Part shown: piece by piece, positions 21,984 through 46,364 of the stretch
Layout of the letters: each line of letters starts with the position of its first letter
Position numbering within the stretch: position 1 is the first letter of the stretch
From: Phoronis australis
Lineage: Eukaryota; Animalia; Phoronida
Reading direction: 5' to 3'
Assembly: GCA_002633005.1 (NCBI GenBank)
Contig: NMRA01000433.1
Span: 288,891-352,890 of the forward strand
DNA length: 64,000 nt
Translations under genes and position numbers: made by a program
The notes under the pieces: model-generated
What the model was told of the DNA's origin: nothing
What the model saw: the letters and a program-made list of their open reading frames with translations, nothing else
The model's database searches: none

Positions 21984-24900
21984 AGCTGATTTTTGAGTGA
22001 TTCCGGAATAGCTGAGGTGTGTATAGAGAGTGCAGTACTTGGTCAAGGCCTATGGAACTGGTCCTCAGTGGAAAGTCGTACAGCAAAGCTACAGTAAGAG
22101 GGCACACAAACTGTCTTTGCAAGTTCTGTGGCATCTCCTGGTGTCAAGCCTTCTCTCGTTTATTGCTGAAGCGAGTGTCATGCCTGTATTACCAGTATGC
22201 CTGCAGATGATGATCCACAAAAAATTCCGGAGTTGATAACATTTCTCAATCAGGATAAGTTCAGGAAACTCCTGGGTATTTTGTCAACAGTAGATCTGAT
22301 GATGTAAATTTCAGCTTCTGGTGGAGTTACATTGGACATGGTTCCAATATTGTTAAAGTACACATGCTCTCGACGGGATGGCATTTAGGAACTGCATCTC
22401 TATTCATTTACTCTCATGCTGCCCCACCGAATTATGCCCGAGTGGGGTGCGGTCTTTTTAGTCGAGATGCATCAGCTTCCACAGTCTGATTGGTCAGAGG
22501 TTCAAGCAGGAAATTTTGTAGTCAAGTGATCTCCTCATATGCTCTGTCACTTAGATTCTGACCAGCGGGTAAATAGGGCAGGCAAAACGGAGATGGCATC
22601 ATCGGTAATACCAAAACCACGTCAGCTTCATGGAGGTGGACACTCTCATTTAATCTGAGATCTCATATAGCTGAACAATCTTACCGCTGTGGGAGTACAT
22701 AGTTTCACAACGAAGCCACGAAAGCCAGGCAACTGAGCGAAAATAATGTTGAGAGTTCCCTTCTTTACACTTTCTATGGATTGAAGGTCTTCTCGTCCGC
22801 AAGGCCTTAGCGGCTACAAAGCCTTGCAACAAAAGACCTACCAACAGCACCAATCCAAGAGTCACTTTTACATGCTAATGAACTTGGATACGAAAAAATT
22901 AAGAACTTAGTTCAAACAGATTATCACTGAGCAACGTGATAATTCAGACATGTCAATTCATGCGCCTATGCGCAAAAATAATGTCCCAACATTTGCCAAC
23001 TTTTATGACGTGGTGAAACAAACCAAAGACAAAGACAAGAAAATAGTTCTTAAGGCAGACAGGGATGTACTTCACTGTGTAGCTACGGCTTAAGAGGCGG
23101 GTCGGCCAGTTGCTTTGCCGTCTGTGTTCAAACGCGAGCTTCTTCCCGTCCATGCTTTTCTCGCAGAAACGAGTGGCACATTGCGCACTGGAGATAAATC
23201 TTCACTTGCCGAAGTCACATCGACTGTCCTGAAACAATTCAACTTCATGACACGTCCACTTGCCTCATTATTGATGGAGAAGCATTGCTGGTAGCTCTTA
23301 GGAAGCCTGATTGTGATTTGACCTTCAAAAACCTGGCTGATTCATTCATGAAAACAGTGCTAAACACAGGGGTTCGATATCATAAAATATATATTGTATT
23401 TGACAAATACAGACTCGACATAATGAAGGACACAACAAGAAAACAGCGCAGTAAAGGAACACGGCAAATCAGGTGATTTTTGGAAGGCCGTGATGTACCT
23501 CTTCCTCAAAACTGGTCAAATTTTCGGGCACTGGCTGAGAATAAAGCAGACCTAGCACATTTCTTGTCAGAGGAACTGTGTTTGTAGACGCCTGAAAATA
23601 AAGAGGTTATGGTTGCAGGAGGGTTCAAAGATGAGTTGGAAGTCAATTAAATCATCTAAGGATATGACTGATTTGAGGACTCTGAAATCCACACATGAAG
23701 AACCAGATGCAAGATTGGTGCTGCATGCTGTCCACAGTCAATCATGTTTTCCAGGGACACCCAATGTTTTACTGCTTCTGGTATCGCACTTATAACAAAT
23801 GCAATGTGAGCACACCAAAGAAACGGCGATATATAAATATTGAAGCACTTTTCAACAAGCTACTACGAGACTCAGCAACATCCGTGTTTGCTTTTCATGC
23901 CGTCACCGGGTTTGGCACCAACTCGTACTTTGCCAATCACATGAAACAATCATCATGGAAGGTGTTCCTATAGCATCACAAGTTGCTTAAGAACCTATGC
24001 ATTGATGAACTCACTGAGAAAATTACGATGGCTTCAGAAGTATTTGTCTGCAGAATATACAACACGACCAGAACAGACCTGTAGATGTAGCACGCCATTT
24101 ACTATTCTCCAAGCCCGTAAACCCAGAAGTCCTTTCCCCAACGCATAATGCCCGCCGTTTCCATTTGATGAGAATGCACGATCTGGTCAAGGTATGGCAA
24201 GTGTTCCATACCTGAGCTCCCAGCACCCTCTGATATGGGAAGGACACACAAACTTATGCTTGCAGCCCATGCTGATGACACAGGGTAATATCCCGGATAG
24301 CTGCTTAGAGATGGTATTGTGTGCATGCCACAAACAATGCAACAGTAGACAATGCAGATGCATGAATTTTGGATTTCGATGCATATCATTATGCACATGC
24401 CGGCAGCACATTCATGATCAGATTCCTTGTATGCAAGCAGTTTATTTGCCTGGCTTCAGGCATGTTAAAACGTTCCTAAAAGTGAATGCTAAAACTGTGT
24501 TCAGCAGGCCTGAAAACAATTCGTGCAATTAAAAATCTAATGTCTTCAATTACAATAACTATATTGATTTTTATGAATGGGAGATAACGGGATAGTGTGA
24601 ACATTTGTCCTCATATTCCGTCAAAATATTGACACCTTTCTTAACGAGCATTGCAGATTAACGACTATTCTTTCCACATTCTGTACATCTATAACTCAAT
24701 AAATATGAAATAAATTGCTGTTTGTTAACCATGAAAAAGTAAGCATAAACAATTCATTTTTCAAGTTAGCCTGCAGGAGCACAAACTTAAGACGCAAATT
24801 ACATTGTATGGTGATGGCGGCACCTAATTTGCATAAATAGTTTTTAGAGTTGCATTTTTTAGTTTTCATAAGTGATGTATTGCTCAAGAAGTACTTATAA

Positions 24901-25158
24901 GTAGTGTACAGGTGATACATTTCACCATTTTAAATGGTATACTGGAATTTCTATTGCAAAAATACATCTGAAATTGACAATTTGGCCGCCATTTTGTTTA
25001 TGCTAATTAGATGGTCAAAAATGCAAAATTCGGCTTGGGAACAGGGTTAGTTGAATTCGCCATGCATTGATTGTGTGAAAAAATCTTGTTCCCAACTTTT
25101 ACTAAAAATGCTTCTAGAACCTTATAGGGGGCCCTTTTCAGGAAATGCGTCTAGACTA
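21984..25158 (+). mobile_element. Degraded Academ (AcademX-type) DNA transposon, left end missing
   Basis: Frameshifted remnants: VLSGKSYSK.RAHKL, STHEEPDARLVLHA and FHAVTGFGTNSYF (XPG/FEN1-like nuclease), C-terminal CACHKQCNSRQCRCMNFGFRCISLCTC (Cys-rich finger). Right terminus ...GCGTCTAGACTA at 25158 fits the TAG...CTA ends I recall for Academ. Confidence 0.75.
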
Positions 25159-25359
25159 TATGCTGTGTACCCTTTTGTCAACTTGTGTCGAATCTGCTGA
25201 ACCGGTGTGCCGACATAGGGATATCTAGACTTTGCTTTACCGTTTAGGGTGACCTAGATATAGAGTTCCTGGAATTAAACAAGCATAAACATGTTATTTC
25301 CAAAAAAAGTAAAGTTACGTTAAATAATGTTGAACACCGCAGAGTGTAACACGACAATT

Positions 25360-25636
25360 TCTGCAATCTGCTGTCTTTTGTTCTGAAATGTGACGTGAAA
25401 TTGTTGCAAAAGAACGGCCTTTTTGCCTATATTCGTCCGGGCTTTTGCCAAGGTGCGAAGCTGTACAAAGATGGCGCTACCTGCGCGCCGTTCACTCTCC
25501 TGGCGGAGAAGTGAACTATTCCGCACACCTATACCAACTACTGTATATCGTTGAACGATCGGAAGTTGCCGTACCGAGTTACAGTCAAGCCGCGGACGAA
25601 GGTATATGTGTTCGCAAAACAATGAATATTTATTGA
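25360..25636 (+). pseudogene. Possible decayed paralog of the cystine-knot gene (duplicated at about 26964-27240)
   Basis: With a 1-nt frameshift it reads VRSCTK-DGATCAPFTLLAEK*, versus SRRCQKPG(D/A)TCGKFRIFNRPRC. It is followed by the same downstream block that follows the intact gene. Needs several repairs. Confidence 0.3.
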
Positions 25637-25888
25637 CTTTCTAACCGACATGCATGACTAACCTGAACGCATTTGTCCAATCGCATGATATTTCGGACGC
25701 ATGTGCCTTTAGCCCTAACCGTTACGGACGATTAGACCGTGGGAATATCACTTATTTTGTAGCTGAAGCGATTTAAACGCATTGCGTTTCACGCGTCATG
25801 AATTATGCATTACGGCGTTCTATCGTTCAGTGACTTTACCAAACGTAGAGGGTTGTGAGAATGTGATAACATCTAGCTTCTTTGTTAA

Positions 25889-26050
25889 AGGCGAAGGCAA
25901 CCTTTTTCATGTCATTTTGAGCTAAAATAAGGTTGGTTGGTTATCCTAGACATATTTTCCACTTAATTACAGCTTTTCGTAATTTTATTAATTACTCGTC
26001 CTCTACTCCGGAAGTGACGTTTTAGGAGACAAGCGTTTCCCGCCACTTGG
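25889..26050. mobile_element. End of a TTAA-inserted (Kolobok-like) element truncated by a contig break
   Basis: Starts AGGCGAAGGCAACC right after TTAA (25885-25888). The duplicate block has the empty site TTTGTTAACTGCC at about 27485-27497. Confidence 0.55.
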
Positions 26051-28798
26051 NTTTGCCTGGCTTCAGGCATGTTAAAACGTTCCAAAAAGTGAATGCTAAA
26101 ACTGTGTTCAGCAGGCCTGAAAACAATTCGTGCAATTGAAAATCTAATGTCTTCAATTACAATAACTATATTGATTTTCATGAATGGGAGATAACGGGAT
26201 AGTGTAAACATTTGTCCTCATATTCCGTCAAAATATTGACACCTTTCTTAACGAGCATTGCAGATTAACGACTATTCTTTCCACATTCTGTACATCTATA
26301 ACTCAATAAATATGAAATTGCTGTTTGTTAACCATAAAAAAGTAAGTATAAACACTTCATTTTTCAAGTTAGCCTGCAGGAGCACAAACTTAAGACGCGA
26401 ATTACATTGTATGGTGATGGCGGCACCTAATTTGCATAAATAGTTTTTAGAGTTGCATTTTTTAGTTTTCATAAGTGATGTATGGCTCAAGAAGTACTTA
26501 TAAGAAGTGTACAGGTGATACATTTCACCATTTTAAATGGTATATTGGAATTTCTATTGCAAAAATACATCTGAAATTGACAATTCGGCCGCCATTTTGT
26601 TTATGCTAATTAGATGGTCAAAAATGCAAAATTCGGCTCGGGAACAGGGTTAGTTGAATTCGCCATGCCTTGATTGTGTGAAAAAATCTTGTTCCCAACT
26701 TTTACTAAAAAATGCTTCCAGAACCTTATAGGGGGCCCTTTTCAGGAAATGCGTCTAGACTATATGCTGTGTACCCTTTTGTAAAATTGTGTCGAATCTG
26801 ATGAACCGGTGTGCCGACATAGGGATATCTAGACTTTGCTTTACCGTTTAGGGTGACCTAGATATAGAGTTCCTGGAATTAAACAAGCATAAAACATGTT
26901 ATTTCTAAAAAAGTAAAGTTACGTTAAATAATGTTGAACACCGCAGAGTGTAACACGACAATTTCTGCAATCTGCTGTGTTTTGTTCTGAAATGTGACGT
27001 GAAATTGTTGCAAAAGAACGGCCTTTTTGCCTATATTCGTCCAGGCTTTTGCCAAGGTGCGAGGCTGTACAAAGATGGCGCTACCTGCGCGCCGTTCACT
27101 CTCCTGGCGGAGAAGTGAACTATTCCGTACACCTATACCAACTACTGTATATCGTTGAACGATCGGAAGTTGCCGTACCGAGTTACAGTCAAGCCGCGGA
27201 CGAACGTATATGTGGTCGCAAAACAATGAATATTTATTGACTTTCTAACCGACATGCATGACTAACCTGAACGCATTTGTCCAATCGCATGATATTTCGG
27301 ACGCATGTTCCTTTAGCCCTAACCGTTACGGACGATTAGACCGTGGGAATATCACTTATTTTGTAGCTGAAGCGATTTAAACGCATTGCGTTTCACGCGT
27401 CATGAATTATGCATTACGGCGTTCTATCGTTCAGTGACTTTACCAAACGTAGAGGGTTGTGAGAAAGTGATAACATCTAGCTTCTTTGTTAACTGCCAAG
27501 CAGTCTTGTGGTTGACATGACAACAGGCAGGCCAATTATCTACCAGGCTTATTACAGACCACGTGTGAACACCGTCAAACCCAGAGTGAATTGGTACGTT
27601 CGGAAAGAATAGATTGTCTTAACTTCGGTTGTAGTTGGGCGATTTTGGCGATTCAAAAACTAAAGATGATTAACATTGACGAGAAATTCAGAATTTCTAT
27701 TAGTTTATGTTCAAATATATTTTAACTTAACTTTATTTTTAACAGCACAACCCAGTCAGGTTGGATACGATCTTCTTGGAGATCAGAGCAATTATAGAAC
27801 AAACGAGAACTGGCCCTCTAACCACAAAGGCCAGAATAGAATTCATCAGTCGCGACAACAGGGATCATCTTCCCAACTTGTTGTTGGGGTATAGAATCGA
27901 AGACGTTGGGATCAACAGGAATACGCTGTAATGCGTATAACCTGACCCACATGTACAATATACAGAGCTTTTTACAATGTACCTGATAGACTGAAACGGG
28001 GGTCAACGAGGTTAATTTTATATAATTCAAGCATCTGAATGCTTCTTTCGTCGATTTATTGGTTTTGCAATGATTGATATTGAAATTAAGTGAGATTTTC
28101 CATGCAGTGATTTTGTAACAAACAGATCCATTTCTAAAGGACAAAACAAACTTCGACAAAAGAAGATCGACCACACAATCAGTGAAAGTTAACAAATATT
28201 CCCCTCAAATGAAAAGAATCCTACGTTGACACCGTCACCGGTCGAGATTGAGCAACTCGACCGGTTTACGTACCTCGAAATCTGCCACATTGCTGAAAGC
28301 AATTAATTACATCGCCTCACTGGGTTGCTGATGTTATCGTTCTCTAAATAATGAACACTTAGTATTTTCAAATTTTCTTTTTGAAAGTTTTTAAATAACG
28401 CATTTGAATAAATCGTGAATGTTTGAAAATCGGACAAGAAATTGGACTTTCAAAACATGAATCTGGTTTACAATGCTGCGCAACATAATTGGACCAATTA
28501 CCAAATCACCAAGCACAAGTTGGACGTTGACGTACGCCAAGTGTCATCGTGCTGTTCTTGGCATGACCCACATCACCCATGTGACCCATTTCCCCATAAT
28601 GACCAAAAGGCGGAAATATGCAATCGTGCTCCTTCCAATGTCTCCCGCAAAACGGGAGCCATGATTCCAAGGTTCTGGAACCTTGAGTGTGTTTCACGGC
28701 AGTGAAACGGGTGGGTTTCTCTATGATTTTGTCGGCAGTAAGACTCCACCTTTTATATCGCATGATATGTTGGACTGCACAAGAACTAGGCTATCACA

Positions 28799-30127: not shown

Positions 30128-31442
30128 GCCACCAGCCTGCGAGTCGGCCCCTGACATTACTTGTTGTTCACACTTGAACATGCATGTACTTTGGTTATGC
30201 TAGGCAAATGGTATACAAGCTCGTTTATCATCACGTTTTCCCCCCAACTGTTTTCTAATATGCATTAGACATCTCTAGGTCACAACAAAGGTGTCACGCT
30301 GATACCGTGGGATCGTCGTGGCCTGTCTCGAATGAAAGAGTTGCGAGGGATAAAATATGTCAACGTGACAACAAACACGCCTCGACTTAATTCCCACGCA
30401 GCCGAGCGCGAGTGAATGTTTGAAGGTAAGTTGTCCCCATGAACTACAAAAATGACACCGGTAGCATATTCATTAACAGAACTTCAACTTTTGTACAGCA
30501 GTGCATTTTTGTCGAGGGACTGAAAGCGCCATGCCACCACATCAAAACCCCTAAGTTTCAATCGCTGCTGTTCTCAAGGCTGATCTATTGTTAAAGTTGG
30601 CGAGGCATGAAATAAGGCCGCGGATTGTATCTAGTCATGATAATGGAAAATAAATTTATCCTAATTAATGTAACATTCAAAACTAAAATTTCGCGAAAAT
30701 AACAACAATTTTAAGTGGCCCGTTGGCCTGAGTTATGTAATCACAGTGGGTCAATGAAATTACATTTGTACCACTGACGAGGGGCTTGCTAAAATTTTCC
30801 TGATATTTCTCGATGCTTTAAACGGTAACGACTTCCTCTCAGACTACGGTGAACTTCGTTGCATTTCGAACGCAGCGTGTTAGAAAATGTAAAACTTTGC
30901 GTGACGCATTGCAACCGAAAATGAAGAAATCATTCCTCGCTGTTGGCACTAACTTGTACTTTGCAGCTACCGATGAATAAATCTAGGCGAAATTCTAAGC
31001 ATTATTGTGGCAATGTAGAAAGCTTTTGAAAATCAGAATATAATGTTTTTAACAATTGTTCGAATTGAAATCATGTTTACTCAACGACTCTATATTTGAA
31101 ATCATCCAGTTTGTTACGTGTTGGTTAAAAATAACAATAAATTCAAATTACTATATGACGGTACCATGTAACCAGAACGTTTCTATTTGTTTTTGATTAT
31201 AACTTCATCCCCCAAATTTGCCCAAAATTCGGATTCATAGAACCACTGACGATGATATAAGGTTTCCACGTGTCCAGTACTTGTTTTTCAAGGGTCACGA
31301 CCGCTACTATGTTTGCCTTTGAAAACATTCTTCAGCATCAAGCTTGTCAAGGTTGGGCAACTGTTTTGTTAGCCTATAAGACTAGCATTCTGGCCAAGTT
31401 TCATTAAATCAACATCTATTAAACGCAAGCGGGACAATAGTT

Positions 31443-31513
31443 TGACGTGATGAGTTCGTTCGTCCCTTGAATGTAGCGAAACAGTCGAACCGGAACCAAG
31501 ACGCTCTATATAA
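31443..31513 (+). promoter_or_regulatory. Core promoter of the cystine-knot gene: TATA box plus CRE/ATF-like site
   Basis: TATATAA at 31507-31513, about 60 nt before the ATG; TGACGTGA at 31443-31450. Confidence 0.55.
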
Positions 31514-31573
31514 TGACAAGCAATGACGAGTACGAAGTATTCTGATCCAGACGTCAGACGCCAGTAGAACATC

Positions 31574-34500
31574 ATGAAGCTGGTAAGTGACTAGTGGCCG
31601 ACACGGATTTGTGCGGTTTACGTGTGAAAGTACACAGCAAATAGGAGCACTTTAAAGGGTTAGCAGAACAAAATGTTTAAATTGAACAACACTTCGGGAA
31701 CACGCGTTTTCAGTGGCTGTATTTACATGATGCACCACGTGACTATATGAGATATTAGAAAAAGAAAATCTAATAGCAAAGGCATTAAACTTTTTCAGTT
31801 GTTTCACATATATTTTATTTTTATTGGTTTATTGATGATTAGATACAATATTATATTTTTCTTTATTCATGACAGTTAAAAAAGTAAAGAGTTTTATCGG
31901 TATGAATTAAGACAAAGCAAAACTAGCAAACACGTCGACTCAAATTTTGTGTCCTTAACCACGCCTTCCAAAAATGTTTAATTGCCAATATTAAGCCCAG
32001 AATAAGGAACAGCGTCCTCGCTAACTGTGATTACTATATAGAAAGTCTCCTAGAACTGGAGTAACGGTGTTGGCATAAATAATCAAATTGTTTTCACACA
32101 TTCTACTGAAAACATTTTGGATGTGCCTTTCCCGTAGTGGAGTTAATTTAAGTGGATCAAAATGTTTGCAGCATATCAGTTTATGTTTATCGCTTAACAT
32201 TTTTTGTCATTTTGCCATTAACCTGCGTTTTATCAAGATAGCTAAAACGTATTTTTTGTTAACATTTCCAGTTCGCATTGTCTGCTCTTCTCGCTTGCTC
32301 CATCGTGCTTCTGCGTGCTGAAGATGTCGCCAGTGACGAAATGGATAATGCCGATGACGTTGCTGCAGACTTCAGCGAGCGCTCAGCTGAAGAAAATCAA
32401 CTAAGCGAAGACTTGGACGCCCGTTCACTGGAAGATGACAGTGAAGCAGACGACCAATCAGACTTAGTCGAACGCTCTGAGGGTGAAGACGAGGCCGACG
32501 AAAAGGGGGCCGACGACGGCCAAGTCGATGAACAGCAGAGATTCCTGTTCTCGAACAAGAAATGCAAAACAGTCACGAGATTTATTCGGTTTGTCAGACG
32601 CGGACGCAACTTTTACAAACTCACCAGGCCCGTCTGGAGTAGACGATGCCAAAAACCAGGGTAGGTGAACATTTTTTCTGTGAACAACAAACTTCTTTCC
32701 AAGTGAACAGCACACAAATAAAATGGAGACACTTGTCATTCTGACGAGAATGATATACAATAAAATATTAAACGTATTACAGAATGATAATAGAAAAGCT
32801 AATGAAAAAATAAAGAATAGTAAAAACATAATCCTTTCATCACTTGTCATTCTGCTGAGAATATTTAGCATTATTATAGAGTAATAATTGAAAACCAACA
32901 AAATAATCTCAATTCCTTAATTAAACAGAAGAGGATTTTTTTGCGCTTTTCTTATGTTCCACTTGTTGAAACTACAGCACAGTTCATTCGATTTCTGTAC
33001 AGTGATGCCATCAACTGCTCAGACAGTTAAAGGAGCATGCCACCCAAAGACAACCTATTTTGTATCAATTTAGATACAGTAGTTCTACTCGATAATGGCA
33101 CGTTCGGTTGCGTTACCTGAAACCTGACGGCAGACAGAGGTGTTGAAATTATCCAAAGACGTTATTGGTTTCACACGCAGTCTCTTCAGCAGTTCACAAC
33201 AAGGGTTACTGGTGTCAGCTTATCGCTTTAATCCATCGTTTAACACCAATATATCATCAAACCTCGATGTAAAACCCTTAAAAATACACCGAGTTCTTAT
33301 ACAAACGTCTTGTTTTATTTTGCTGTTACGGATTAATTGGTATTTGGACACACCGTAGCCTATAAAGTTCGGCAGATCAATTTTCCAAGGTCCGTAGCAG
33401 GAGTTTGCCAGTGGGGTCTGTTCGGAGATAGTTCGAAGTATTCTTCATTGAAATACAGACAGGAGAACCTGTAGATCTGTGTTGTTAAGACTTGTGATTT
33501 TTTTTAGTTCTAAACACACAACACGCTTGTTATCCCGGCCAGTGGCTCGGAACCCATTCAGGCCCATCGCGACCGGACTGACTAGTTATGCCGGCCAGTG
33601 GCTCGGAACCCGATAAGGCCCGTCGCAGCCGCCGGGACTGGCACGAACATAAACCAGCTCGAGTTAGAAACTAAACCTCCAGCCACGAAAAGACTATAAT
33701 AGTGAGCCAAATAAATAATGTGCACGTAATTATTTATGTGAATTAGCTACGAAACTGAAAATCTGCTTACTTGTCGGGGGCCGCAAAGTCAGGTTCCCTT
33801 TCCACAGACCGTCAGGGCAAAGGTTGTACAGTAACAATGATTTGAATAATGTATTTGTATTTCTAAATAAAGATTCCCCTAACATGTGACCATAGCATAT
33901 AAAATCGAGTTATTGTTTCACAACAGTTTTCTGTCAGTAAACACTGAATTAGCATGCGCTCACACGGCCTCGGTGCCCGGTCAATTACCTTTATTGCCTG
34001 CATCAAAAGCCGGTAACGCAGTGGTTTATTCATTGCTGGCTTCTCAACATTTGCACTTACGAATACTGCAAAGGCATTACAAATTGTACCTAATGAGACA
34101 GACTTTGTTTAAGTTCTATATAAGTATTGGTTAGGATGAGAATAATTCATTTTGAAACAAAGCGCAAAAAATAAACCTCTACATGACAACTCGTCTGGCG
34201 CCAATCCCGACTTAGTCAAGAGCTCATCAGACGAAGATTTGACGGTCGGATCGTTAGATTTCAAAGGCTATCAATTCGAACCAGAATACTCTGCCCAAGA
34301 AATACTAGAGGGGCGCCGTGAACATGCACAGGCACGGAAAGTATGGATAGTTCTTTGGTAAGCCAGAATTCGTCAGGGAAATCACTGTCGACGAAATGCC
34401 GGCCACAGACACGGATATGTTTCAGGGCCTCATATTTGTTATGAACAGCGTACCTTTCATTCTTCACTACCGCGAGCCACTTCCTAAGCATTTCGAGCTC

Positions 34501-35029
34501 TCGAGGAAGTCGAAAAAACGATATACCCGCTTTCTTCGCAGCTTCATAGTTCGGACAAGCGGGAACGATGCACCGCAATACAGCGGCATTCACTCTGCAG
34601 ACGAACCACTGACGTCGCTGCGTCGTTTCGCACCTTCCTTATGGGTTAACGCGACACCTCTCGGCAAGGTGAGGTCGACCGTATAAGAGGCGATGTGGAT
34701 ACAGACTGATTAAGACGGCAAAAGACTAATTTAATCGGGTGGCAATCTCCTTTAAGTTTATGAAACAAATTTTACATTTTGTTTTGGTAGCTCTATATTG
34801 GCATATGAAAATCAGATGCACAACGCAAAACATTTCATTGCTGAGCATGAACAATGGTTCATATTTTTGTTATTGTACTTACAGAGACACCTGTGGGAAA
34901 TTTAGAATATTCAATCGGCCTCGTTGCCGCACCGACAAGAGGAGTATCATCAGATTGGCCAGGACTCAGTGGACTTGCAAACTCGCGAAAGTGAGAGTCC
35001 ATTTCTACGTTTGCTCCTGCCGCCGCTAA
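31574..35029 (+). CDS. Secreted prepro-protein, 180 aa: signal peptide, acidic propeptide, polycationic cystine-knot (Spaetzle-like) mature domain
   Basis: Exon 1 31574-31582 (ATG AAG CTG/gtaagt); exon 2 32272-32660 (tttccag acceptor, GG/gtaggt phase-2 donor); exon 3 34885-35029 (cttacag acceptor, phase 2, TAA). Total 543 nt with an open frame. Signal MKLFALSALLACSIVLLRA; propeptide EDVASD...VDEQQR; mature FLFSNKKCKTVTRFIRFVRRGRNFYKLTRPVWSRRCQKPGDTCGKFRIFNRPRCRTDKRSIIRLARTQWTCKLAKVRVHFYVCSCRR. Confidence 0.82.
33031..34751 (-). mobile_element. Non-autonomous Kolobok-type DNA transposon carrying a THAP domain, inside intron 2 of the cystine-knot gene
   Basis: TTAA on both sides (33027-33030, 34752-34755). 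15-bp TIR AGGAGCATGCCACCC / GGGTGGCAATCTCCT. THAP frame 34261-34593 (CIVPAC...FFRLP...WL...VCGRHF) has no in-frame ATG. Confidence 0.8.
33528..33640 (+). repeat. Two-unit 57-bp GC-rich tandem repeat inside the Kolobok element
   Basis: GTTAT(C/G)CCGGCCAGTGGCTCGGAACCC...AGGCCC(A/G)TCGC repeated at 33528 and 33585. Confidence 0.7.
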
Positions 35030-38000
35030 GGAACCACAGTCAGTTGGCGCGTAGTACTGCACACCGAAATCTAGTATTTTTCCCACATGTAGATAGGCCA
35101 CGGTTAGTCTTACAGCTCTTTAAAAACAAGTCTTCTACTCGGCCGACGACAAAAACTGCAGCCAATATTCTACTTAATCCACTATCTTACACATTTAATT
35201 GGACTAAGAATTGTTTCTACCGAGAGCTTCTAAATGAATACTTGTAAACACTTAGACGATTTTGAAAATGTTGAATCATAAACACCTTAAATTGTTTCAA
35301 GTTCTGACGATTTGCTTGTTATACAAATGCTGTAACTTGGATCTGAAACAGGAGCTGTAAACGTGTTAATAAAGTTAATTAGCAATTTGAGACTTGTTTT
35401 TATTCAGCGCCAACACCACGTGTTGTATTGTCCCAGCTACAGGAAATTATCCCAGAAGGCCAAATGAGCATAATTTGGTCTGACTGTTTTTTTTTGTTGT
35501 AAATCGGGTCGGAGGTACAATATGTTTAGTTACTCTTTTTTTTTTAAATCCACCCGCCACGAGTATAATATACAGGCTGTGGTATACCAGTTTCGGGTGA
35601 GAGGAGGTCAGTTGGCCGTCAGTCGCACCAGAGTTCCGACACATGACAGCGTTTTCCCGTGTGACTTTACCAGACGAAGGGGGTTCTGAGCGAGTGATAA
35701 CATCTAGCTTCTTTGTTAACTGCCAAGCACAGTCTTCTGTCTGTTATGACAACAGGCACGCTAATTATCTACCAGCTTTATTACAGACAACGCATGAACA
35801 CAGTCAAACCCAGAGTGAATTGGTACATTCGGAAGGAATAGATTACAATGTATCGTCACTTCAATTGCAGTTGGGCGATTTTGGCGATTCAAAAATTAAA
35901 CATGATCACCATTTGACGAGGATTTCAGAAATGATACTGGTTTATGTTCAATTATGTTATAACTTACTCAGTATAGTTTTTGATCAATAAAATTTCTTAG
36001 CCAACACTCGTGCATTTTCCGCGACGACCGCCCGAGAAGAATAGACTTAGACACAATGCAGACAATCCATGACCATGCAAGACTTCAATAAAATAAGAAT
36101 TTAACTACTTTGCTGGTAAGAGGCATATCTTGAGCTGCGTGCACTGGCAAGCCGTCACACACTGCGATCAAGATACCCCTAGCTGTATCCTAGTACACTG
36201 AATATTAGATTGCTGCTTATAATGCATGGGCGTATAGAGAAAGCACTTTAAATTGCGTTTTGCCAGAATGATACCAATTTCACCCTCCTCCTAACAGCCT
36301 CCTATTTTTAAGCCCATCCCCGGCCTAAGGTCTACCACTTTCAAACCCTCCCGGTCAACGTCACTTTCATCCCGCCTGTTCCCCTGGCCGCCATTAATTT
36401 ACGAAACTCCGATCGCCACCGTTTTCAGTCCCCCTTCATCCCCCCTCCCTCGGTCGCCGCCGATTTCATTCCCTTCTTCTGTGTCGTCCCGTATTTTACC
36501 ATCCAATTGCTATCAGCCAGTTGTTTTGTCTGAATTCTCCATAGTTATTGCCCAAAACACGCCGCTGTTTCGATGTACATTTTCACTGATTATCATACAT
36601 GTACGGAACATGACGGCAACATCCCGTTGCTCCCAACTTGTTCGATTCTATAGCCCAACAACTTGGGAAGTTTACCCCCGTAGCCAATATCTTACACAAC
36701 TGATTAACTCCATTCTGGCAATTGTCTTGAGGATATGAATCACGTATCTGGGGAAATGCATGTGTGCTCCAAGCCGACTGCTTCAAAGAAAGAAAGAACA
36801 CCTACTAAAAATTAAATCTGCACATTCTAAATGAATATTTCACATTGTACATGATGCTAAGTTTGTGGAATACTGTATGTTACGGTCGAACATACACTGG
36901 TAATGTTGCTCGTTTTGTGGAATAGGTACATGAAAGTTTTAAAATACTAATGGAGTAGCACGTGTTTCGTCAAGAATTGCAATTTGCAAAACATTTCATA
37001 ATCAGTATGTGTTTGTCATCTTTCGTGCTATTTAGTTAGCGAGCGCACTTTCGAACATCCAAATTTGGGAATTGAAAGTAAACCAACTCGATAGCGTAAA
37101 TTCTAATGATTATTTATATTTCAAGAGAAAAAGTAGAGTTATTGAATCTTTTTTGGTTTTGTGCCAAGACACTTCCGATTTGACTGAAACATCCCCCGCA
37201 GGCCAAAACTTGAGCACTGTTGAGCCCCGGGCCAGTCATAGGAATCCTATATGATAAATGGAAACCAAAAGTGCCTAGTTACCTATTCTGACACATAACT
37301 TTATTTTCTGACAGACGCAACATGATATGACAATCAGTACTCTACCACGCCGTATTTACTGTATTTTAGTATTGTGTTTGAAGCATTGTTGGCCGATAAC
37401 CTCGATTATTAATAAACGAACTACACACTCATGACACATGAGCGTCCCAGGGCGGCCGGTTTTAATGTTAATAGTAAACAAAATATGTTCAGAAAAGTCT
37501 CTTGTTCAAAATCAGATCTCAATGATAAATCTCAAATCTATCAAACCGACAAATCAAAGCTTAATTAACCAAATCACACGAGCATGACTTGTTTGTGTGT
37601 GCGTGTGTGTGTGAAATGACACCTTAACCGAGAAAGGAATGCAGTGACTCACCAATCCTATTGAGATATTCAACAACTTAAAATGGCAAACATGTTATTT
37701 CTTTTCTAAGACTTCACGATTCACACGAAGTAAAAAACTGGCACGATTCCGCGAAGTCCGGGAGTCCTGTTTACAGGTGTCCATGTACTGTCGTGTTTGT
37801 TTCAAAGGAGACGTGCTTCAGGGGTGCGCCTTTAAGCCGTAATGTATGAGCGCGAGGTCGTCTTTGCGAGTTAGTGCAATAATTTCACAGATCTGTGAGC
37901 ATTGTTCATGAAATTTCACCTATGATCAGAGCCAAGACGTGGTTATAACTAAGAGTACAATGCAACAATGCCGTTTTCTTGAACAGATTTTATATCGATC

Positions 38001-38326
38001 GTTAGAAAGTCTTGCAAGAATAAACAAGACCGGAAGGGTGTCCATATTAGGCAAGTACCTAGTACCCTAAAAGCTAGACGGTTCCAATTACGTGTGTTCT
38101 GGTTCATGATTGGATATAGAAATGGCGTCGGGTATCTTAGCAACGAAGGTTGTCCCACCCATGAGGGTACAGATTGGTCCATGGGATCAGCGAATATTTT
38201 TGAAACTTACCTGCCGCGCGGTTGAGCTTTCACAAGTAATTTTTGAGGCTTGATGATAGGGGGCTGGGGTGCTGTAGCCCGGCCCCCACTTATTTCAGGG
38301 CTTCGCCACCCATGCATGCTTAAAAA

Positions 38327-38766
38327 AATAAAACCGAGACCGGCAAGAGATCTTTTATTTATGCTCCTGCAGCAATATGGAACTCTCTTAGCCCAGAAAT
38401 TAAACGGTCCGATTCAATTAATACAACATAATATTAAAAAGTGGCTGCAATTTACCTAACCGTTTTACACCCTACCTGTCTTAATTATGTAATTTTTCAT
38501 TGTAGTAAATACTTTCACTGTTTAATATCAGCTTTTTGTTGATTTCATCTCTCTTAATCCAATTTTCAACATCCTTCGTCATTTATTTATTATTTTAATT
38601 CTCAACCTGTTTTAATTGTATCTCTGTTACATGAATTTAATTGTTTTATAACTTTATTGTATTATATTACTGTTTTATATTTTGTTGTTGAGGGCACTCT
38701 TGGAAAACAGTGCTATCACTGAAAAGGACACCCTCATTTTAAATATCACAATTAACAAAATAAAAA
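38327..38766 (+). mobile_element. 3' end of a CR1/L2-group LINE
   Basis: NKTETGKRSFIYAPAAIWNSLSPEIKRSDSINT...KKWL (RSF.Y....WNSL RT tail), T-rich UTR, stem-loop GAGGG...CAGTG/CACTG...CCCTC and A-rich end. Confidence 0.7.
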
Positions 38767-39470
38767 GGACATCACAAAGCTTCGGTATAACTAGACGGCG
38801 AAAATGAAATGAGAAATCAGACGTAGACTTTTTCAGTGGCTAAATTGACATGATGTGCCACCCCATCTAATATTATACAGATAAGTAACGTTATATTTGG
38901 TTTATTCATATTTTGCGATCATTTCGCTCATGTTCTTAAACCAGTTTATTTTTATGTGGAATATACACTATATTAGTTTCCAGTTATCATTGATAACATA
39001 TTGTTGCATTGACATACATGCCATCACGACAGTGAAGAACAAAATATGATGCGCAAACTGTAACAGCGTTAGAAGATTTTATCTCAAACAACGCTCGAAA
39101 CAGTTCGGATGTTTTCATAAAATACTTCGATTTAACGTTTCCCTTTTGCTTTTGGCTTCGCAAAAAATAAAATTCAGCCGCCCAGTTTCAATACTAGTTG
39201 TAAAACGATAACCTGATTGGGCCTTATACAGTCACCAAATCGGTCTCGTAATCATAAATATTCGTTACTGCGCTAGGATTATATTTCCATTACCAACAAG
39301 AACACCAAAACTATCAACTACTCAAGAAAACGATTCATTGTTTAATGGGGTTCACAAGCCCTAAACGAAATTGCAAAGACGAAAATAATGCACGTGCTCT
39401 TTGGCCGACTCTAGGAACCAATATGAGATTGTTCCTAGGCCGACTTGAGTAGCTGGCTCATTCGGAAATG

Positions 39471-42400
39471 GGTTAAAACTGCGTCATTTCCAAGATGGCC
39501 GACATGACGTTTCGAAATCACCAAAAATTATAGATATAATTTCTTCAATAATTGAGATAGAGACATAATTTTTGGTTCTAGTCTATGGTTTTACGGGATG
39601 AGCAACTCGCTGGTGTGACTAAAATTAAGATATGATCCGTATTTAATATGAAATTCAAGATGGTGGCTAAAATTCAAGAACGCAAAATCACTGATTTGTC
39701 CATTATATCGGGTGGTCAAAGAAACGTTTCGAACTTTAACCTTTACTTTTACTAAAAACATTCATTGAAATTGCACGAAATTGTGCACATGTGCATATCA
39801 ATCTATTGTCATTACACCATAAAAATATAATGATACACTGTGTTTTCGTTACAAGACCTGAGAAAAGATACTTTCATAACCCAAAAAAGTCAATGCCAAA
39901 TAAGCCTACAAGATTAATATACAAAGAGTTATTGTAAAGAATGGTGACACTTAGCAATAAATATATACAGAAGTGCGTTTTCAAGGGTTTTGTTATAGTC
40001 AGTTGGGTGCTACATTTTGCAAAGTCATGGGTTTTTTTCAAGTCTTGAGAACGAGCTAATTGGGGTTAATTACAACATGTTTTACACAAAATCCTGACTG
40101 CAATCTAATGAACTACACCGTTTGGAATGCGCCGACAGAGCCTAATGTGTACCAAGGTATAGTTTGTATTATGCTCAATAACTTAAGCCTGCAAAAATTC
40201 CCCTTTACTAAAAGGCATCTGTCAGTCTCAAAGTGACTGAAAAACAGGTTCTAATAAAGTATTTATTCGTCGACATGACGCATGAACGAGTAGATTACAT
40301 TTTCATCCAAAAATGTTATGTTCATTACACGTATGCATACTGCCTCAGGTCAATGCTCATCACTGTCTTCACGTTCCTCAGAAATTCGATTTAGTGGATT
40401 GTCACAATATGTCGCTAGGCACAATCTACATGTAGATGTACATGCAAGCCCATTTTTTCTGCAACTGCATCGGGGGGTGCTACCAGCTGTAGTACAGATG
40501 CAGTGTATCATCTAGAGTGTCTGGTGCAGCATTCATGGCAGTTATGATGTGTACGATTCTGGGAGTAATATACATGTACATAGGGAGTGGAAACTTCAAG
40601 CCCAACTTTCATCGCTATTGTACTATGACTGCCTCGCTATTCAGGCTCACAGAGCGAAATAATCGGATTTACTTAGTGCCAGAACCACAGTTCAGCGCAC
40701 GTCAACACTGTTGGGCATGCGCACTTAATCAACAACATCGGCAACCATTTTTAAAAACACGCCCTTTCACGGCATTAAAATCCTTGTGATTCTTGTCGGT
40801 GTTGTTATTGAGAATTTGACGATGTTAAAGTTCTGTCATTAATTGTAAATTCATTGATTGTACTAATTAGAGCACGTAGAATACAACTGACTTGAGATAT
40901 TGGTCCTAGGTACGAATTGATTGTTTTCAAGTCTCCAGCCCCAGTCTAAAGGCTCCTGGTCATTTGGCATCTCCATGACCTGGTAGCACACTCGAGAGAA
41001 TGGAACCTGGTGGCTGATTCCGTAGGTGGAAGACGTTCGGGAGTAGCGATAGACTTAGCAGCAGCAAGCTTTTTTGTGAATATATTTGTCAGACGATTGT
41101 CTGTGTGGGTTTGTTTAAAAGGTAGCTATGCTTTGAAGTTGTGCATAGATGGAGAGTGAATAATCAAATCCAGTAATTAATTTACTATATGATAACCCCT
41201 AATTAGACAAATGAAACCTATTGTTAATTAAGTAATCAACTACAAAGAGAAACTACGCTAGCGCCCTCTTTAAAGATTACTTTAATCAAACAACCAAACG
41301 ATCAAATGTCTTATCTGCTATCCAAGCTAGGACTCTCCACTTGTTGGATGTCTGTCCTTGCTGCTCCTCTATCCGAGTCATTTTACTGCCATGAGTCAAG
41401 CTGCCTGTGCCTTTTAGCGATCGCATTTAGTAATTCTTCTCAATGGCTAGATCACAGCTGAGGCCTGCCCAAAACTGGTTTGTTCGCTGAATCATGCGAA
41501 AGCCATTTTTGAAACTTCGCATACACATCTGCGTATTTGCTTTCCGTATCAGCCATTTCTTGTATGTAGAGTTATGCAGATTTCAGGTAGTTGTGGTGTC
41601 CAGCTGCAGCAAATATTGGCAAGGCATCACCAACAGCAGGCAAGTGATCACCCAAGACCGAGTGCGATCTGCCTTGATCATTGCCTGAGCAGTATGGAAC
41701 ATTTTCAGACCAGCCACAGACTTCTTCTCAAGATTGACGATAATCTGCACAATTGCGGCTGTTGTGGGACACTTCAGACAGATGATGACACTTTGTCCTG
41801 CCTCCCGTTCAGTAACGCTAGAACCTCGCTAAAAAGCAAGACTTCGCGAGATTACGTGAGATATTGCCGTGTATTTTAAATGAGAACACGTGACTTTGAC
41901 TAGGTTTTAGCTAGGTCCTAGCGTCTACTGAACGCGCGCCTGGACTTCTAGTGTCCTTGTGTGTTTAAATAAAAACCAGTGGCAAGCAAATATACACTAG
42001 AGAATATATTGTTACTTTTGTGCAAGCCAATGCTTTGGATTAAATATTAAATATTAATGCAATGTTCTTATTTTAAAGTAGTTCAGTCAGAAATCAGTCA
42101 AATCTGAATGTTTTAAGATAATAATTCAATCAGAAACCAGTCATGTCTAATCATACTTCCGTTATAATTGATGAAGTGAAAATCATGTGATTTTTGTTCT
42201 TGAATTTTTGCCGCCATCTTGAATTTCATATCAAATACTAATCATGTCTTGGTTTTAACCACACCAGCGAGTTGCTCACCCCTTAAAACCATAGACTACA
42301 ACCAAAAATTATGTCTCTATCTCAATTATTGAAGAAGTTATAATGTTTTTTTGGTGATTTTGAAACGTCGTGGCGGCCATTTTGGAAATGACGCAGTTTT

Positions 42401-42528
42401 AACACGGATTTTGGTAGACTGTTAATAAGGATTCGCAATAGAGCATAAAACCACTGTAAAACCTTTTGTTGCAATTTGTTGTGGGTCAGGTGGTATATTG
42501 ACTCGTTAAATAAATTATTTCTAGAATG
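39471..42528 (-). mobile_element. Internally deleted AcademX-type transposon with about 210-bp subterminal inverted repeats
   Basis: Inverted repeats 39471-39681 and 42197-42403. Minus-strand remnants PERLPPTESATRFHSL, PLDWGWRLE and AAPD..MIHCICTT...RCSCRKNGLACTSTC, plus the SCDLAIE...MRSLKGTG region at about 41390-41480. Confidence 0.72.
41801..41939 (+). mobile_element. About 140-bp short mobile element with CTG TSD (family also at 1953-2103 and inverted at 4563-4725)
   Basis: Ends CCTCCCGTTCAGTA...TACTGAACGCGCGC, flanked by CTG/CTG. The empty site GCCCTGGACT is at 49111-49120. Confidence 0.8.
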
Positions 42529-42530
42529 TG

Positions 42531-42912
42531 ACTCCCAAATAAAGACTGGTTAGTGCATTTGTGGGCTTATGAAAATGCTGGTTGTCCTTATTTTCATGCT
42601 GTTGAAGTCTCAAAACTAAGTCGTATTGTAACCTTGATCCAAATCGCGAGTGAACTCCACCTTGCATTCTCAATATTGTATTGAAAATAATTATGATTCT
42701 TTCATGCAACGCCCCAAATTTAATTATTTTGACTGAATTAAGGGCTCGGCTTTAGTTATATAATAATAAATGTCATTTTAGTCAAAGAGGAGCTGGAAGA
42801 TAAAATGGTTCTGTAAAATACATCAGTGAAGTAAAGAATGAAACAAATACAGAACAGGTGAAGGGAACTTAGTCAAGTCCCTGTTTGGGACTTTTTCATG
42901 CAGCCGGGCCCT
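42531..42912. mobile_element. MITE family (also 49511-49910, diverged copy about 17198-17480)
   Basis: Subterminal inverted TCCCAAATAGGGACT..AAGTTCCCT / AGGGAACTT..AGTCCCTGTTTGGGA (left arm complete in the 49511 copy). Right end GCCGGGCC-CTG resembles Harbinger MITEs. Confidence 0.55.
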
Positions 42913-43562
42913 GGACATTCACATAACATTGGATTTCACAGTAAATGCATGACTTTGTTTTTCACAATCTATAAAAATAACGTATTCTTGATAATGTTAT
43001 GAGCGCGATGACTTTACCGGAAATGAAAGACCGGTTTCTTCCTCAACGTCACCTACAGCGGAGTTGCAACCGAATCGATTTAACGATTGCGCATGTCCGG
43101 AAATTAGGGTGCGCAAAGGCTACTGGGATTGTTGATGGTAAACGGGATGACCGACTGGTTTGCACGACGTGTAATTTGTGTGCATTAAACTACGCTGCTG
43201 TATGTAATTCTGCCGCTATTCGCCCTAATTAGCGCCCATGGCTCAACAAGTGCCCCAACGCGTTTTCAGACTTTGCTAAAGTAAGCGCCCAGCCCATGAA
43301 CTACATGCGAAAAATGCCCTTACCTACAGTTCTAACGTCTCCAATTTATCAATTGAAAGATCCGACAGCCTGAATTTGTAACGGACCACGAGCCTCACCG
43401 TTATGTCCGTATACACTTCAAACTTACGCCGCGATTCAAAAAGAACGCAGAAGTTTTGCTGCTCTTGCGAGGGATGTGCCCCACTACGCGGGTCTGGACT
43501 TTGAAAACAGACACAGCGTACTTGTCAAAGAGCGGGATTGCATTGTTTCTTTCCAGTACAGA

Positions 43563-44123
43563 NNNNNNNNNNNNNNNNNNNNNNNNNNNNNNNNNNNNNN
43601 NNNNNNNNNNNNNNNNNNNNNNNNNNNNNNNNNNNNNNNNNNNNNNNNNNNNNNNNNNNNNNNNNNNNNNNNNNNNNNNNNNNNNNNNNNNNNNNNNNNN
43701 NNNNNNNNNNNNNNNNNNNNNNNNNNNNNNNNNNNNNNNNNNNNNNNNNNNNNNNNNNNNNNNNNNNNNNNNNNNNNNNNNNNNNNNNNNNNNNNNNNNN
43801 NNNNNNNNNNNNNNNNNNNNNNNNNNNNNNNNNNNNNNNNNNNNNNNNNNNNNNNNNNNNNNNNNNNNNNNNNNNNNNNNNNNNNNNNNNNNNNNNNNNN
43901 NNNNNNNNNNNNNNNNNNNNNNNNNNNNNNNNNNNNNNNNNNNNNNNNNNNNNNNNNNNNNNNNNNNNNNNNNNNNNNNNNNNNNNNNNNNNNNNNNNNN
44001 NNNNNNNNNNNNNNNNNNNNNNNNNNNNNNNNNNNNNNNNNNNNNNNNNNNNNNNNNNNNNNNNNNNNNNNNNNNNNNNNNNNNNNNNNNNNNNNNNNNN
44101 NNNNNNNNNNNNNNNNNNNNNNN
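43563..44123. other. Assembly gap (561 N)
   Basis: Run of N. Confidence 1.
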
Positions 44124-45300
44124 CTGACTCGTTATCCCGGCCAGTGGCTCGGAACCCGATCAGGCCCGTCGCGGCCGCCGCGACTGGCACGAATATAAAC
44201 CAGCCCGAGTTATAAACTAAACCTCCAGCCACGAAAAGACTATAATAGTGAGCCAAAGAAATAATGTGCACGTAATTATTTGTGTGAATTAGCCACGAAA
44301 CTGAAAATCTGCTTACTCGTCTAGGGCCGAAAAGTCAGGTTCCCCTTCCACAGACCGTCAGGTCAAAGGTTGTACAGTAACAATGATTTGAATAATGTAT
44401 TTGTATTTCTAAATAAATATTCCCGTAACATGTGACCATAGCATATAAAATCGAGTTATTGTTTCACAACAGTTTTCTGTCAGTAAACACTGAATTAGCA
44501 TGCAATCACACGGCGTCGGTGCCCGGTCAATTACCTTTATTGCCGGCATCAAAAGCCGGTAACGCAGTGGTTTATTCAATGCTGGCTTCTCAACATTTGC
44601 ACTTACGAATACTGCAAAGGCATTACAAATTGTACCTAATGAGACAGACTTTGTTTCAGTTCTATATAAGTATTGGTTAGGATGAGAATAATTCATTTTG
44701 AAACAGCGTAGAAAATAAACGTCTGCATGGCAACTCGTCCGGCGCCAATCCCGACTTAGTCAAGAGCTCATCAGACGAAGATTTCACGGGTCGGATCGTT
44801 AGATTTCAGAGGCTATCAGTTCGAACCGGAATACACTGGCCAAGAAATACTATAGAGGGGCGCCGTGAACATGGACAGGCAACGGAACGTATGGATAGTT
44901 CTTTGGTAAGCCGGAATTCGTCAGGGAAATCACTGTCGACGAAATGCCGGCCACAGACACGGAGATGTTTCAGGGCCTCATATTTGCTATGAACAGCGTA
45001 CCTTTCATTCTTCACTACCGCGAGCCACTTCTTAAGCATTTCGAGCTCTCGAGGAAGTCGAAAAAACGATATACCCGCTTTCTTCGCAGCTTCATAGTTC
45101 GGACAAGCGGGAACGATGCACCGCAATACAGCGGCATTCACTCTGCAGACGAACCACTGACGTCGCTGCGTCGTTTCTCACCTTCCTTATGAGTTAACGC
45201 GACACCTCTCGGCAAGGTGAGGTCGACCGTATAAGAGGCGATGTGGATATAGACCGATTAAGACGGCAAAAAGACTAATTTAATCGGGTGGCATTCTCCT
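44124..45300 (-). mobile_element. Duplicate of the Kolobok/THAP element (left end lost in the gap)
   Basis: Colinear with 33578-34751; THAP frame 44806-45141; right TIR GGGTGGCATTCTCCT followed by TCAA (mutated TTAA). Confidence 0.75.
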
Positions 45301-45433
45301 TCAAGTTTATGAAACAAATTTTACATTTTGTTTTGGTAGTTCTATATTGGCATATGAAAATCAGATGCACAACGCGAAACATTTCATTGCTGAGCATGAA
45401 CAATGGTTCATATTTTTGTTATTGTACTTACAG

Positions 45434-45578
45434 AGCCACCTGTGGGAAATTTAGAATATTCAAACGGCCTCGTTGCCGCACCGACAAGAGGAGTGTCATC
45501 AGATTGGCCCGGACTCAGTGGACTTGCAAACTCGCGAAAGTGAGAGTCTATTTCTACGTTTGCTCCTGCCGCCGCTAA
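45434..45578 (+). CDS. Second copy (paralog or allele) of the last coding exon of the cystine-knot gene; 5' exons not in assembled sequence
   Basis: Same cttacag acceptor; ATCGKFRIFKRPRCRTDKRSVIRLARTQWTCKLAKVRVYFYVCSCRR-stop. All 5 Cys kept; 5 nt differences from 34885-35029. Upstream sequence runs into the N gap. Confidence 0.75.
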
Positions 45579-46364
45579 GGAACCACAGCCAGTTGGCGCG
45601 TAATACTGCACACCGAAATCTAGTATTTTTCCCACATGTAGTTAGGCCACGGTTAGTCTTACAGCTCTTTAAAAACACGTCCTTGTACTCGGCCAACGAC
45701 AATAACTGCAGCCAATATTCTACTTTATCTGCAATCCACTATCTTACACATTTAATTCGACTAAGAACTGTTTCTACCGAGAGCTTCTAAATGAAGACTT
45801 GTAAACACTTAGACGATTTTGAAAATCTTGAGTCACAAACACCTTAAATTGTTTCAAGTTCTGACGATTTGCTTGTTATACAGATGCTGTAACTTGGATC
45901 TGAAACAGGAGCTGTAAACGTTTTAATAAAGTTAATTAGCAATTTGAGACTTGTTGTTATTCAGCGCCAACACCACGTGTTGTATTGTCTCAGCTACAGG
46001 AAATTATCCCAGAAGGTCAAATGAGCATAATTTTGTCTGACTGTTTCTTTTGTAAATCGGGTCGGAAGTACAATATGTTTAGTTACTCTTTTTTTAAAAA
46101 ATCCACCCGCCACGAGTAAAATATACAGGCTGTGGTATACCAGTTTCGGGTGAGAGGAGGTCAGTTGGCCGTCAGTCGCACCAGAGTTCCGACACATGAC
46201 AGCGTTTTCCAGTGTGACTTTACCAGACGAAGGGGGTTCTGAGCGAGTGATAACATCTAGCTTCTTTGTTAACTGCCAAGCACAGTCTTCTGTCTGTTAT
46301 GACAACAGGCACGCTAATTATCTACCAGGTTTATTACAGACAACGTATGAACACAGTCAAACCC

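What the first reader, a model, noticed from the sequence alone, without database searches (positions are those of the whole stretch)
31574..35029. Hidden 3-exon gene for a polycationic Spaetzle-like cystine-knot pro-protein (candidate new antimicrobial, toxin or cytokine family)
SEEN: a 9-nt first exon behind a TATA box, a 389-nt exon and a 145-nt exon splice with matching phases into 180 aa. These are a 19-aa signal peptide, a 74-aa propeptide and an 87-aa mature region after EQQR. The mature region has 27 K/R, only 2 D, many F/W/Y/I/V in beta-strand-like alternation, and Cys at 8, 36, 43, 54, 71, 83 and 85. The ORF track splits this gene into unrelated fragments. KNOWN: growth-factor cystine knots (Spaetzle, neurotrophins, coagulogen) use C1...C2-xn-C3...C4...C5-x-C6. 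As I recall Drosophila Spaetzle C-106, it has C2-x6-C3 (CEGADQPC), the same spacing as CQKPGDTC here, and is released from a prodomain by cleavage after Arg. INFERENCE: knot C8-C54, C36-C83, C43-C85, with spare C71 free for a covalent dimer. A net charge near +25 is far more than a Toll ligand needs and is typical of membrane-active defence peptides. This may be a cytokine fold repurposed as a direct effector, or a dual ligand/antimicrobial.
Basis: partly seen in the sequence, partly recalled or inferred. Interest (0 to 1): 0.92.

Follow-up and report, generated by a model that had tools for sequence, protein, structure and literature searches.

The report
Fast-evolving cationic cystine-knot-like defence peptide
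This is a spliced and expressed animal gene for a small, likely secreted protein whose strongly negative front half is predicted to mask a strongly positive, cysteine-rich back half that varies sharply between gene copies, likely a new family of microbe-killing peptides that may be built on a growth-factor fold.

Summary
The gene is real. Both predicted splice junctions are read in stranded RNA from three runs (41 and 51 reads) and in contigs of a fourth. The 180-aa layout, 7 Cys, 27 K/R and 2 D are as stated. The pro-piece (about -27) almost cancels the mature part (about +25). Reads show at least three transcript types. One differs at 21 of 71 bases in the mature core but at only 6-9% in pro-piece, intron and UTR, and keeps all five exon-3 cysteines. 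No true homologue was found: Pfam gave nothing, a scan of 1.84 billion proteins gave one spurious hit and PDB sequences one weak hit, all with exon-sized queries. The cysteine spacing fits a growth-factor knot, but the whole domain could not be folded, the C-half alone did not model as a knot finger, and the spare Cys is not at Spaetzle's (recalled) position. Verdict: an orphan, diversifying prepro-peptide family, most likely host defence (about 0.6). The knot fold is plausible but unproven (about 0.55); it is not shown to be a Spaetzle.

The parts
31507..31512 (+). TATA box (TATATA)
   Evidence: read 5' ends pile 46 nt downstream at 31553
31553..31582 (+). Exon 1: short 5' UTR and 9 coding nt (31574-31582)
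   Evidence: sequence; spliced reads 10+7+24 and an X1 contig
31583..32271 (+). Intron 1, 689 nt, GT..AG, phase 0
   Evidence: joint table
32272..32319 (+). Exon 2: rest of the predicted signal peptide (aa 4-19)
   Evidence: mean hydropathy 2.6 over the first 14 residues of exon 2; cleavage site inferred
32320..32541 (+). Exon 2: 74-aa acidic pro-piece (32 D/E, 5 K/R, charge about -27), ending in EQQR
   Evidence: cleavage after R93 inferred
32542..32660 (+). Exon 2: mature residues 1-40 with C8 and C36; modelled as a beta-hairpin
   Evidence: pLDDT 66
32661..34884 (+). Intron 2, 2224 nt, GT..AG, phase 2
   Evidence: spliced reads 11+8+32 and an X1 contig
33031..34751 (.). Kolobok-like DNA transposon remnant in intron 2 (TTAA flanks, short inverted ends, THAP frame 34264-34638 on minus)
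   Evidence: family name inferred
34885..35029 (+). Exon 3 coding: mature residues 40-87 with C43, C54, C71, C83, C85 and stop
35030..35373 (+). 3' UTR to the AATAAA at 35368
   Evidence: sense reads and 3' end pile at 35354
45434..45578 (+). Second, intact copy of exon 3 (5 base changes, 4 change a residue) in block 44124-46364, behind an N gap; second allele or tandem copy

Best explanation
This is a spliced, expressed three-exon gene for a 180-residue protein, predicted to be a secreted precursor of a host-defence peptide whose acidic pro-piece likely masks a highly cationic, cysteine-rich mature domain that most likely folds as a growth-factor-type cystine knot. Inferred mechanism: the signal peptide is removed in the ER. 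The -27 pro-piece neutralises the +25 domain during folding and storage. A protease cuts after Arg93. The released 87-residue domain, two long beta-hairpins held by C8-C54, C36-C83 and C43-C85, binds anionic microbial surfaces through its Arg/Lys and inserts its aromatic residues, killing or clumping microbes. Copies diversify in the exposed residues while the cysteine frame is kept. Shown: gene, splicing, expression, charges, variation, and cysteine conservation in exon 3. Inferred: secretion, cleavage, disulfide pairing, fold, target.
For: Splicing and expression. Charge balance -27/+25, pI 11.7, 12 aromatic residues. Signal + anionic region + cationic C-terminus is the layout of amphioxus BjAMP1 (PMC4683396, passages), and anionic pro-pieces that neutralise the mature peptide are described for marine AMPs (PMC10608444, passages). 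A divergent type differs at 21 of 71 bases in 34885-34955, against 16 of 280 (pro-piece), 12 of 134 (intron) and 17 of 221 (exon-3 end and UTR); Fisher p 2e-7, 2e-4, 1e-5. None of the listed changes removes an exon-3 Cys, one Cys codon changed silently, and a one-residue insertion falls between C43 and C54, a variable loop in knots (recalled). Between the two window copies 4 of 5 exon changes replace a residue. Knot spacing 27/6/10/28/1 is met by 1 of 7 subsets; 1956 of 300000 random placements meet the broad windows, about 10% when a terminal CxC is given. The N-half model has strands 7-16 and 28-37, which puts C8 opposite C36.
Against: No activity data. No Pfam family matched either half at E up to 10. 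The C-half alone modelled as a short-stranded sheet (strands 59-64, 67-75, 79-85; pLDDT 67), whose register would put C71 opposite C83 instead of forming one long finger. The N-half has a helical hydrophobic moment, and its hairpin fits a plain C8-C36 bond as well. The spacing windows were recalled and set after seeing the sequence. No NF-kB consensus in the window (0 found, 2.5 expected). The type-B pieces are partly linked by depth only, the 11 changes in the loose end were counted by eye, and exon vs intron difference between the two window copies is not significant (p 0.45). Fast change in a mature domain also marks toxins and gamete proteins.
Confidence: 0.42

Rival explanations
1. Host-defence peptide with another fold: a C8-C36 hairpin plus a small disulfide-held C-terminal sheet, possibly cut further at internal basic sites into shorter peptides.
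For: Separate models give a hairpin with C8 opposite C36 and a three-stranded sheet at 59-85. Dibasic sites at 6, 19, 34, 58, 86 and RxxR at 13, 16, 19, 63. All evidence for a defence role applies equally.
Against: Fragment models are of low confidence (pLDDT 66-67) and lack partner cysteines. The full six-cysteine spacing fits a knot better than chance.
Confidence: 0.22
2. Cystine-knot signalling ligand (Spaetzle-, neurotrophin- or GDNF-like) whose charge serves to bind heparan sulfate or an acidic receptor, not to kill.
For: Prodomain plus knot-like spacing and a seventh Cys, as in Spaetzle (seven Cys, three bonds plus a dimer link: PMC8637286, passages). Basic, heparin-binding knot factors exist (recalled).
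Against: No match to any Pfam family on either half. Ligands are usually conserved, while this domain differs by about 30% between transcript types with conserved flanks. The domain is 87 aa (about 10.7 kDa), against 13-15 kDa for the fly and mammalian knots (PMC5412559, passage).
Confidence: 0.17
3. Defensive toxin or cytolysin aimed at animal cells, or a skin or mucus deterrent.
For: The acidic pro-piece ends in EQQR, which fits the spider-venom processing quadruplet rule (PMC9788040, passages). Hypervariable mature region on a fixed Cys frame; very high contig depth in one run (a poor measure of expression).
Against: No toxin homologue found; the quadruplet rule is loose; the tissues of the runs are unknown.
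Confidence: 0.11
4. Gamete-recognition, adhesive or matrix-binding protein.
For: Such proteins can be very basic and evolve fast (recalled). Read counts differ about four- to five-fold between runs (18, 25, 96 on exon 3).
Against: A long charge-matched acidic pro-piece is more typical of membrane-active peptides. Transcripts are seen in all four runs from two studies.
Confidence: 0.08

Closest known systems
Spaetzle / neurotrophin cystine knots (Pfam Spaetzle PF16077 per PMC8637286)
   Same: Signal + prodomain + C-terminal Cys-rich domain released after Arg; seven Cys; spacing C-x27-C-x6-C-x10-C-x28-C-x-C falls in the recalled range.
   Different: No profile match on either half. Smaller (87 aa). 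The spare Cys lies 11 residues before Cys V, not next to it as recalled for Spaetzle. Net charge +25, a highly acidic pro-piece, and hypervariable copies.
Prepro antimicrobial peptides with anionic pro-pieces (amphioxus BjAMP1; sea-urchin strongylocins and centrocins)
   Same: Signal, anionic spacer, cationic C-terminal peptide (PMC4683396, PMC10608444).
   Different: Pro-piece 74 aa against 15-30 aa, mature part 87 aa with 7 Cys; none of the 31 families in Table 1 of PMC10608444 has this size and Cys count; no sequence match.
Horseshoe-crab coagulogen
   Same: A knot of the Spaetzle/neurotrophin kind used as an effector in clotting (PMC2586362, passages).
   Different: Coagulogen is larger and richer in Cys and gels after cleavage (recalled); no match found.
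Big defensins and macins
   Same: Similar size (79-94 and 54-78 aa), cationic, disulfide-bonded, marine invertebrates.
   Different: Even Cys counts (6; 6/8/12) and helix-containing folds; no Pfam match here.

Membership tests
Growth-factor cystine knot | Six Cys with knot-type spacing ending in C-x-C | tested here: met
   1 of 7 subsets fits, gaps 27/6/10/28/1; 0.65% of random placements, 10% given a terminal CxC; windows recalled and set after seeing the sequence
Growth-factor cystine knot | The knot cysteines are conserved among variants | tested here: inconclusive
   C43, C54, C83, C85 (and C71) kept in all laid reads and the second copy; C8 and C36 of the most divergent type were not seen, as its contig leaves the window at 32550
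Growth-factor cystine knot | Two long beta-hairpin fingers threaded by I-IV through the II-V/III-VI ring | tested here: inconclusive
   Only halves could be folded: the N-half is a hairpin, the C-half is not a single finger; both pLDDT under 70
Growth-factor cystine knot | Disulfide pairing I-IV, II-V, III-VI | not testable with these tools
   needs disulfide mapping
Spaetzle / neurotrophin family | Match to the family profile | tested here: inconclusive
   No Pfam hit at E up to 10, but the halves were scanned apart
Spaetzle / neurotrophin family | Seven Cys, one free for a dimer | tested here: inconclusive
   Seven Cys present; a second type adds Cys55 in 4 of 16 reads of X3 and 1 of 12 of X2; dimer not tested
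Spaetzle / neurotrophin family | Dimer Cys next to Cys V (position recalled, from no call) | tested here: not met
   The spare Cys is at 71, Cys V at 83
Spaetzle / neurotrophin family | Activates Toll, Trk or p75 | not testable with these tools
   needs receptor assays
Prepro cationic antimicrobial peptide | Signal peptide, anionic pro-piece, cationic C-terminal peptide | tested here: met
   signal peptide judged by hydropathy only
Prepro cationic antimicrobial peptide | Conserved pre-pro and flanks with a variable mature part | tested here: met
   30% vs 6-9%; pieces partly linked by depth only
Prepro cationic antimicrobial peptide | Kills or inhibits microbes | not testable with these tools
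   needs MIC and leakage assays

The most novel reading that the evidence does not exclude
A neurotrophin/Spaetzle-type cystine knot has been turned from a receptor ligand into a direct, membrane-attacking antimicrobial family under diversifying selection, with a charge-matched pro-piece as its safety catch.
Probability: 0.33. Interest if true: 0.85.

Novelty: new variant of a known kind. Interest (0 to 1): 0.62.

Why it matters
At the least it is an expressed, orphan family of very cationic disulfide-rich peptides with natural variants, a fresh scaffold to test against microbes. If the knot is confirmed, it would show a cytokine fold serving as a direct effector. That bears on whether Toll ligands, neurotrophins and coagulogen arose from, or gave rise to, effector proteins. 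Three literature searches aimed at this (listings only, open-licence PMC and bioRxiv) listed no paper whose title or abstract start describes such a peptide.

Full report
Observation. The ORF list shows exons 2 and 3 as separate frames. Reads from three RNA runs (about 18-19% of each read) and contigs of a fourth were laid on 31200-36200. Junction 31582/32272 is shown by 10, 7 and 24 reads and one contig; junction 32660/34885 by 11, 8 and 32 reads and one contig; all on the strand expected for + RNA. Intron 1 and the start of intron 2 are nearly empty. Read ends pile at 31553 and 35354, near TATATA at 31507 and AATAAA at 35368. The gene is real and expressed. The four runs come from two studies; their tissues are unknown.

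Anatomy. A hydrophobic stretch follows the start (mean hydropathy 2.6). The 74-aa pro-piece has 32 D/E and a charge of about -27. The 87-aa mature part has a charge of about +25, pI 11.7 and 12 aromatic residues. The boundary EQQR fits the spider processing quadruplet rule (PMC9788040, passages), but cleavage there is inferred. Signal, anionic spacer and cationic tail is the layout of BjAMP1 (PMC4683396, passages), and neutralising pro-pieces are described for marine AMPs (PMC10608444, passages and part 1 of 2 of the tables section).

Variation. The reads show at least three transcript types. Type A is close to the window. In all or nearly all covering reads it carries I61V and H79Y, as the second window copy does, and R47K. 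Type C has several replacements in mature residues 5-28. Type B, seen in 4-6 of about 16 reads of X3, 1 read of X2 and the deepest X1 contigs, is rewritten in residues 41-63. There it has a one-residue insertion between C43 and C54 and, in the X2 and X3 reads, an added Cys at 55; 6 of 15 X3 reads also lack one C-terminal Arg. It differs at 21 of 71 bases in 34885-34955 (11 counted by eye from the loose-end consensus, 10 listed sites), against 16 of 280 in the pro-piece contig, 12 of 134 in the intron contig and 17 of 221 in the exon-end/UTR contig (p 2e-7 to 2e-4). The intron and UTR contigs are tied to type B by shared letters, the pro-piece contig only by depth and by leaving the window at 32550. 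No listed change removes an exon-3 cysteine. The first lay showed only 40 of about 1013 variant rows, so exon-2 variation is seen in part. A fixed cysteine frame with fast-changing surface residues is typical of defence peptides and toxins (established knowledge).

Second copy. Exon 3 and most of intron 2 recur at 44124-46364 (95% identical) just behind an N gap, followed by further colinear blocks (8 blocks, 4153 nt). Its exon is intact, with 5 changes of which 4 replace a residue. Exons 1-2 of this copy are not in the window. It may be the other allele placed in tandem or a true duplicate.

Homology. Nothing credible was found in Pfam, the word-index search (the control exon also failed), the full scan of 1.84 billion representatives (one chance hit), PDB sequences or the Atlas. 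All queries were single exons or parts of them, so distant knot relatives could be missed.

Fold. Of 7 six-cysteine subsets only 8/36/43/54/83/85 meets growth-factor knot spacing (gaps 27, 6, 10, 28, 1). Random placements meet the broad windows in 1956 of 300000 cases, and in about 10% when a terminal CxC is given; the narrower neurotrophin/Spaetzle windows in 60 of 300000 and 0.5%. The windows were recalled and chosen after seeing the sequence, so these are optimistic. AlphaFold on residues 1-40 gave a hairpin (7-16, 28-37; pLDDT 66) with C8 opposite C36, which fits finger 1 of a knot but also a plain hairpin bond. On residues 41-87 it gave short strands 46-49, 59-64, 67-75, 79-85 (pLDDT 67), not the single long finger a knot needs. 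Residues 5-31 have a helical hydrophobic moment. The whole domain was not folded. Spaetzle has seven Cys, three bonds and a dimer link (PMC8637286, passages), and its knot family is 13-15 kDa (PMC5412559, passage). As I recall, its dimer Cys sits next to Cys V, whereas here the spare Cys is 11 residues before it, near the likely tip of finger 2. Knot families are known to diverge beyond BLAST reach and include the effector coagulogen (PMC2586362, passages). I put the knot at about 0.55 and Spaetzle membership well below that.

Setting. Of 150 further frames scanned (of 238 listed), hits point to a WSC/EGF/F5-8 type C gene on the minus strand at about 8.8-15.4 kb and SURF1 at 57-58 kb. There is no immune cluster in view and no NF-kB consensus. 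Intron 2 is 77% filled by a multi-copy element with TTAA flanks, short inverted ends and a THAP frame, likely Kolobok-type (THAP per PMC6004289, passages; TTAA rule recalled). These signs and the high polymorphism suggest a marine invertebrate (inference).

Mechanism and verdict. Most likely a stored precursor in which the acidic pro-piece masks a polycationic disulfide-bonded domain; cleavage after Arg93 frees it to bind and disrupt or clump microbes. Defence role about 0.6, knot about 0.55, both together about 0.4. Rivals: defence peptide with another fold, heparan-binding ligand, toxin, gamete or adhesive protein. The layout is a known kind; the sequence family appears new. A growth-factor knot used as a direct antimicrobial did not appear in the listings of three targeted searches, which cover only open-licence PMC and bioRxiv. 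No supplements were read.

Noticed in passing
window 33031-34751: Kolobok-like non-autonomous element with TTAA flanks, inverted ends and a THAP remnant; abundant in RNA on both strands from many other copies.
   Followed up: partly
window 33578-43058 vs 44124-50057: Colinear duplicate blocks (80-99% alike block by block where measured, mostly 88-98%) on both sides of the N gap 43563-44123, differing by large insertions; looks like two haplotypes placed in tandem.
   Followed up: partly
window 24445-25896 and 26052-27500: Tandem 1.45-kb duplicate (97%) around a single N at 26051; likely an assembly overlap.
   Followed up: no
window 31200-31533: Sense-strand reads upstream of the main start in run X2 (depth about 6); an upstream start or another transcript.
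   Followed up: no
window 8787-15421 (minus): Exons with WSC, EGF and F5/8 type C domains, likely one multidomain extracellular gene.
   Followed up: no
window 57163-58303 (minus): SURF1 exons.
   Followed up: partly
window 62538-63122: Long imperfect palindrome, 83% over about 600 nt.
   Followed up: no
window 35642-35966: A repeat just behind the poly-A signal, also at 27412-27729, highly covered in RNA on both strands.
   Followed up: no
window 32320-32541: The pro-piece holds three further Arg-Ser sites after acidic residues (aa 40, 54, 71), suggesting stepwise trimming or an internal repeat.
   Followed up: no
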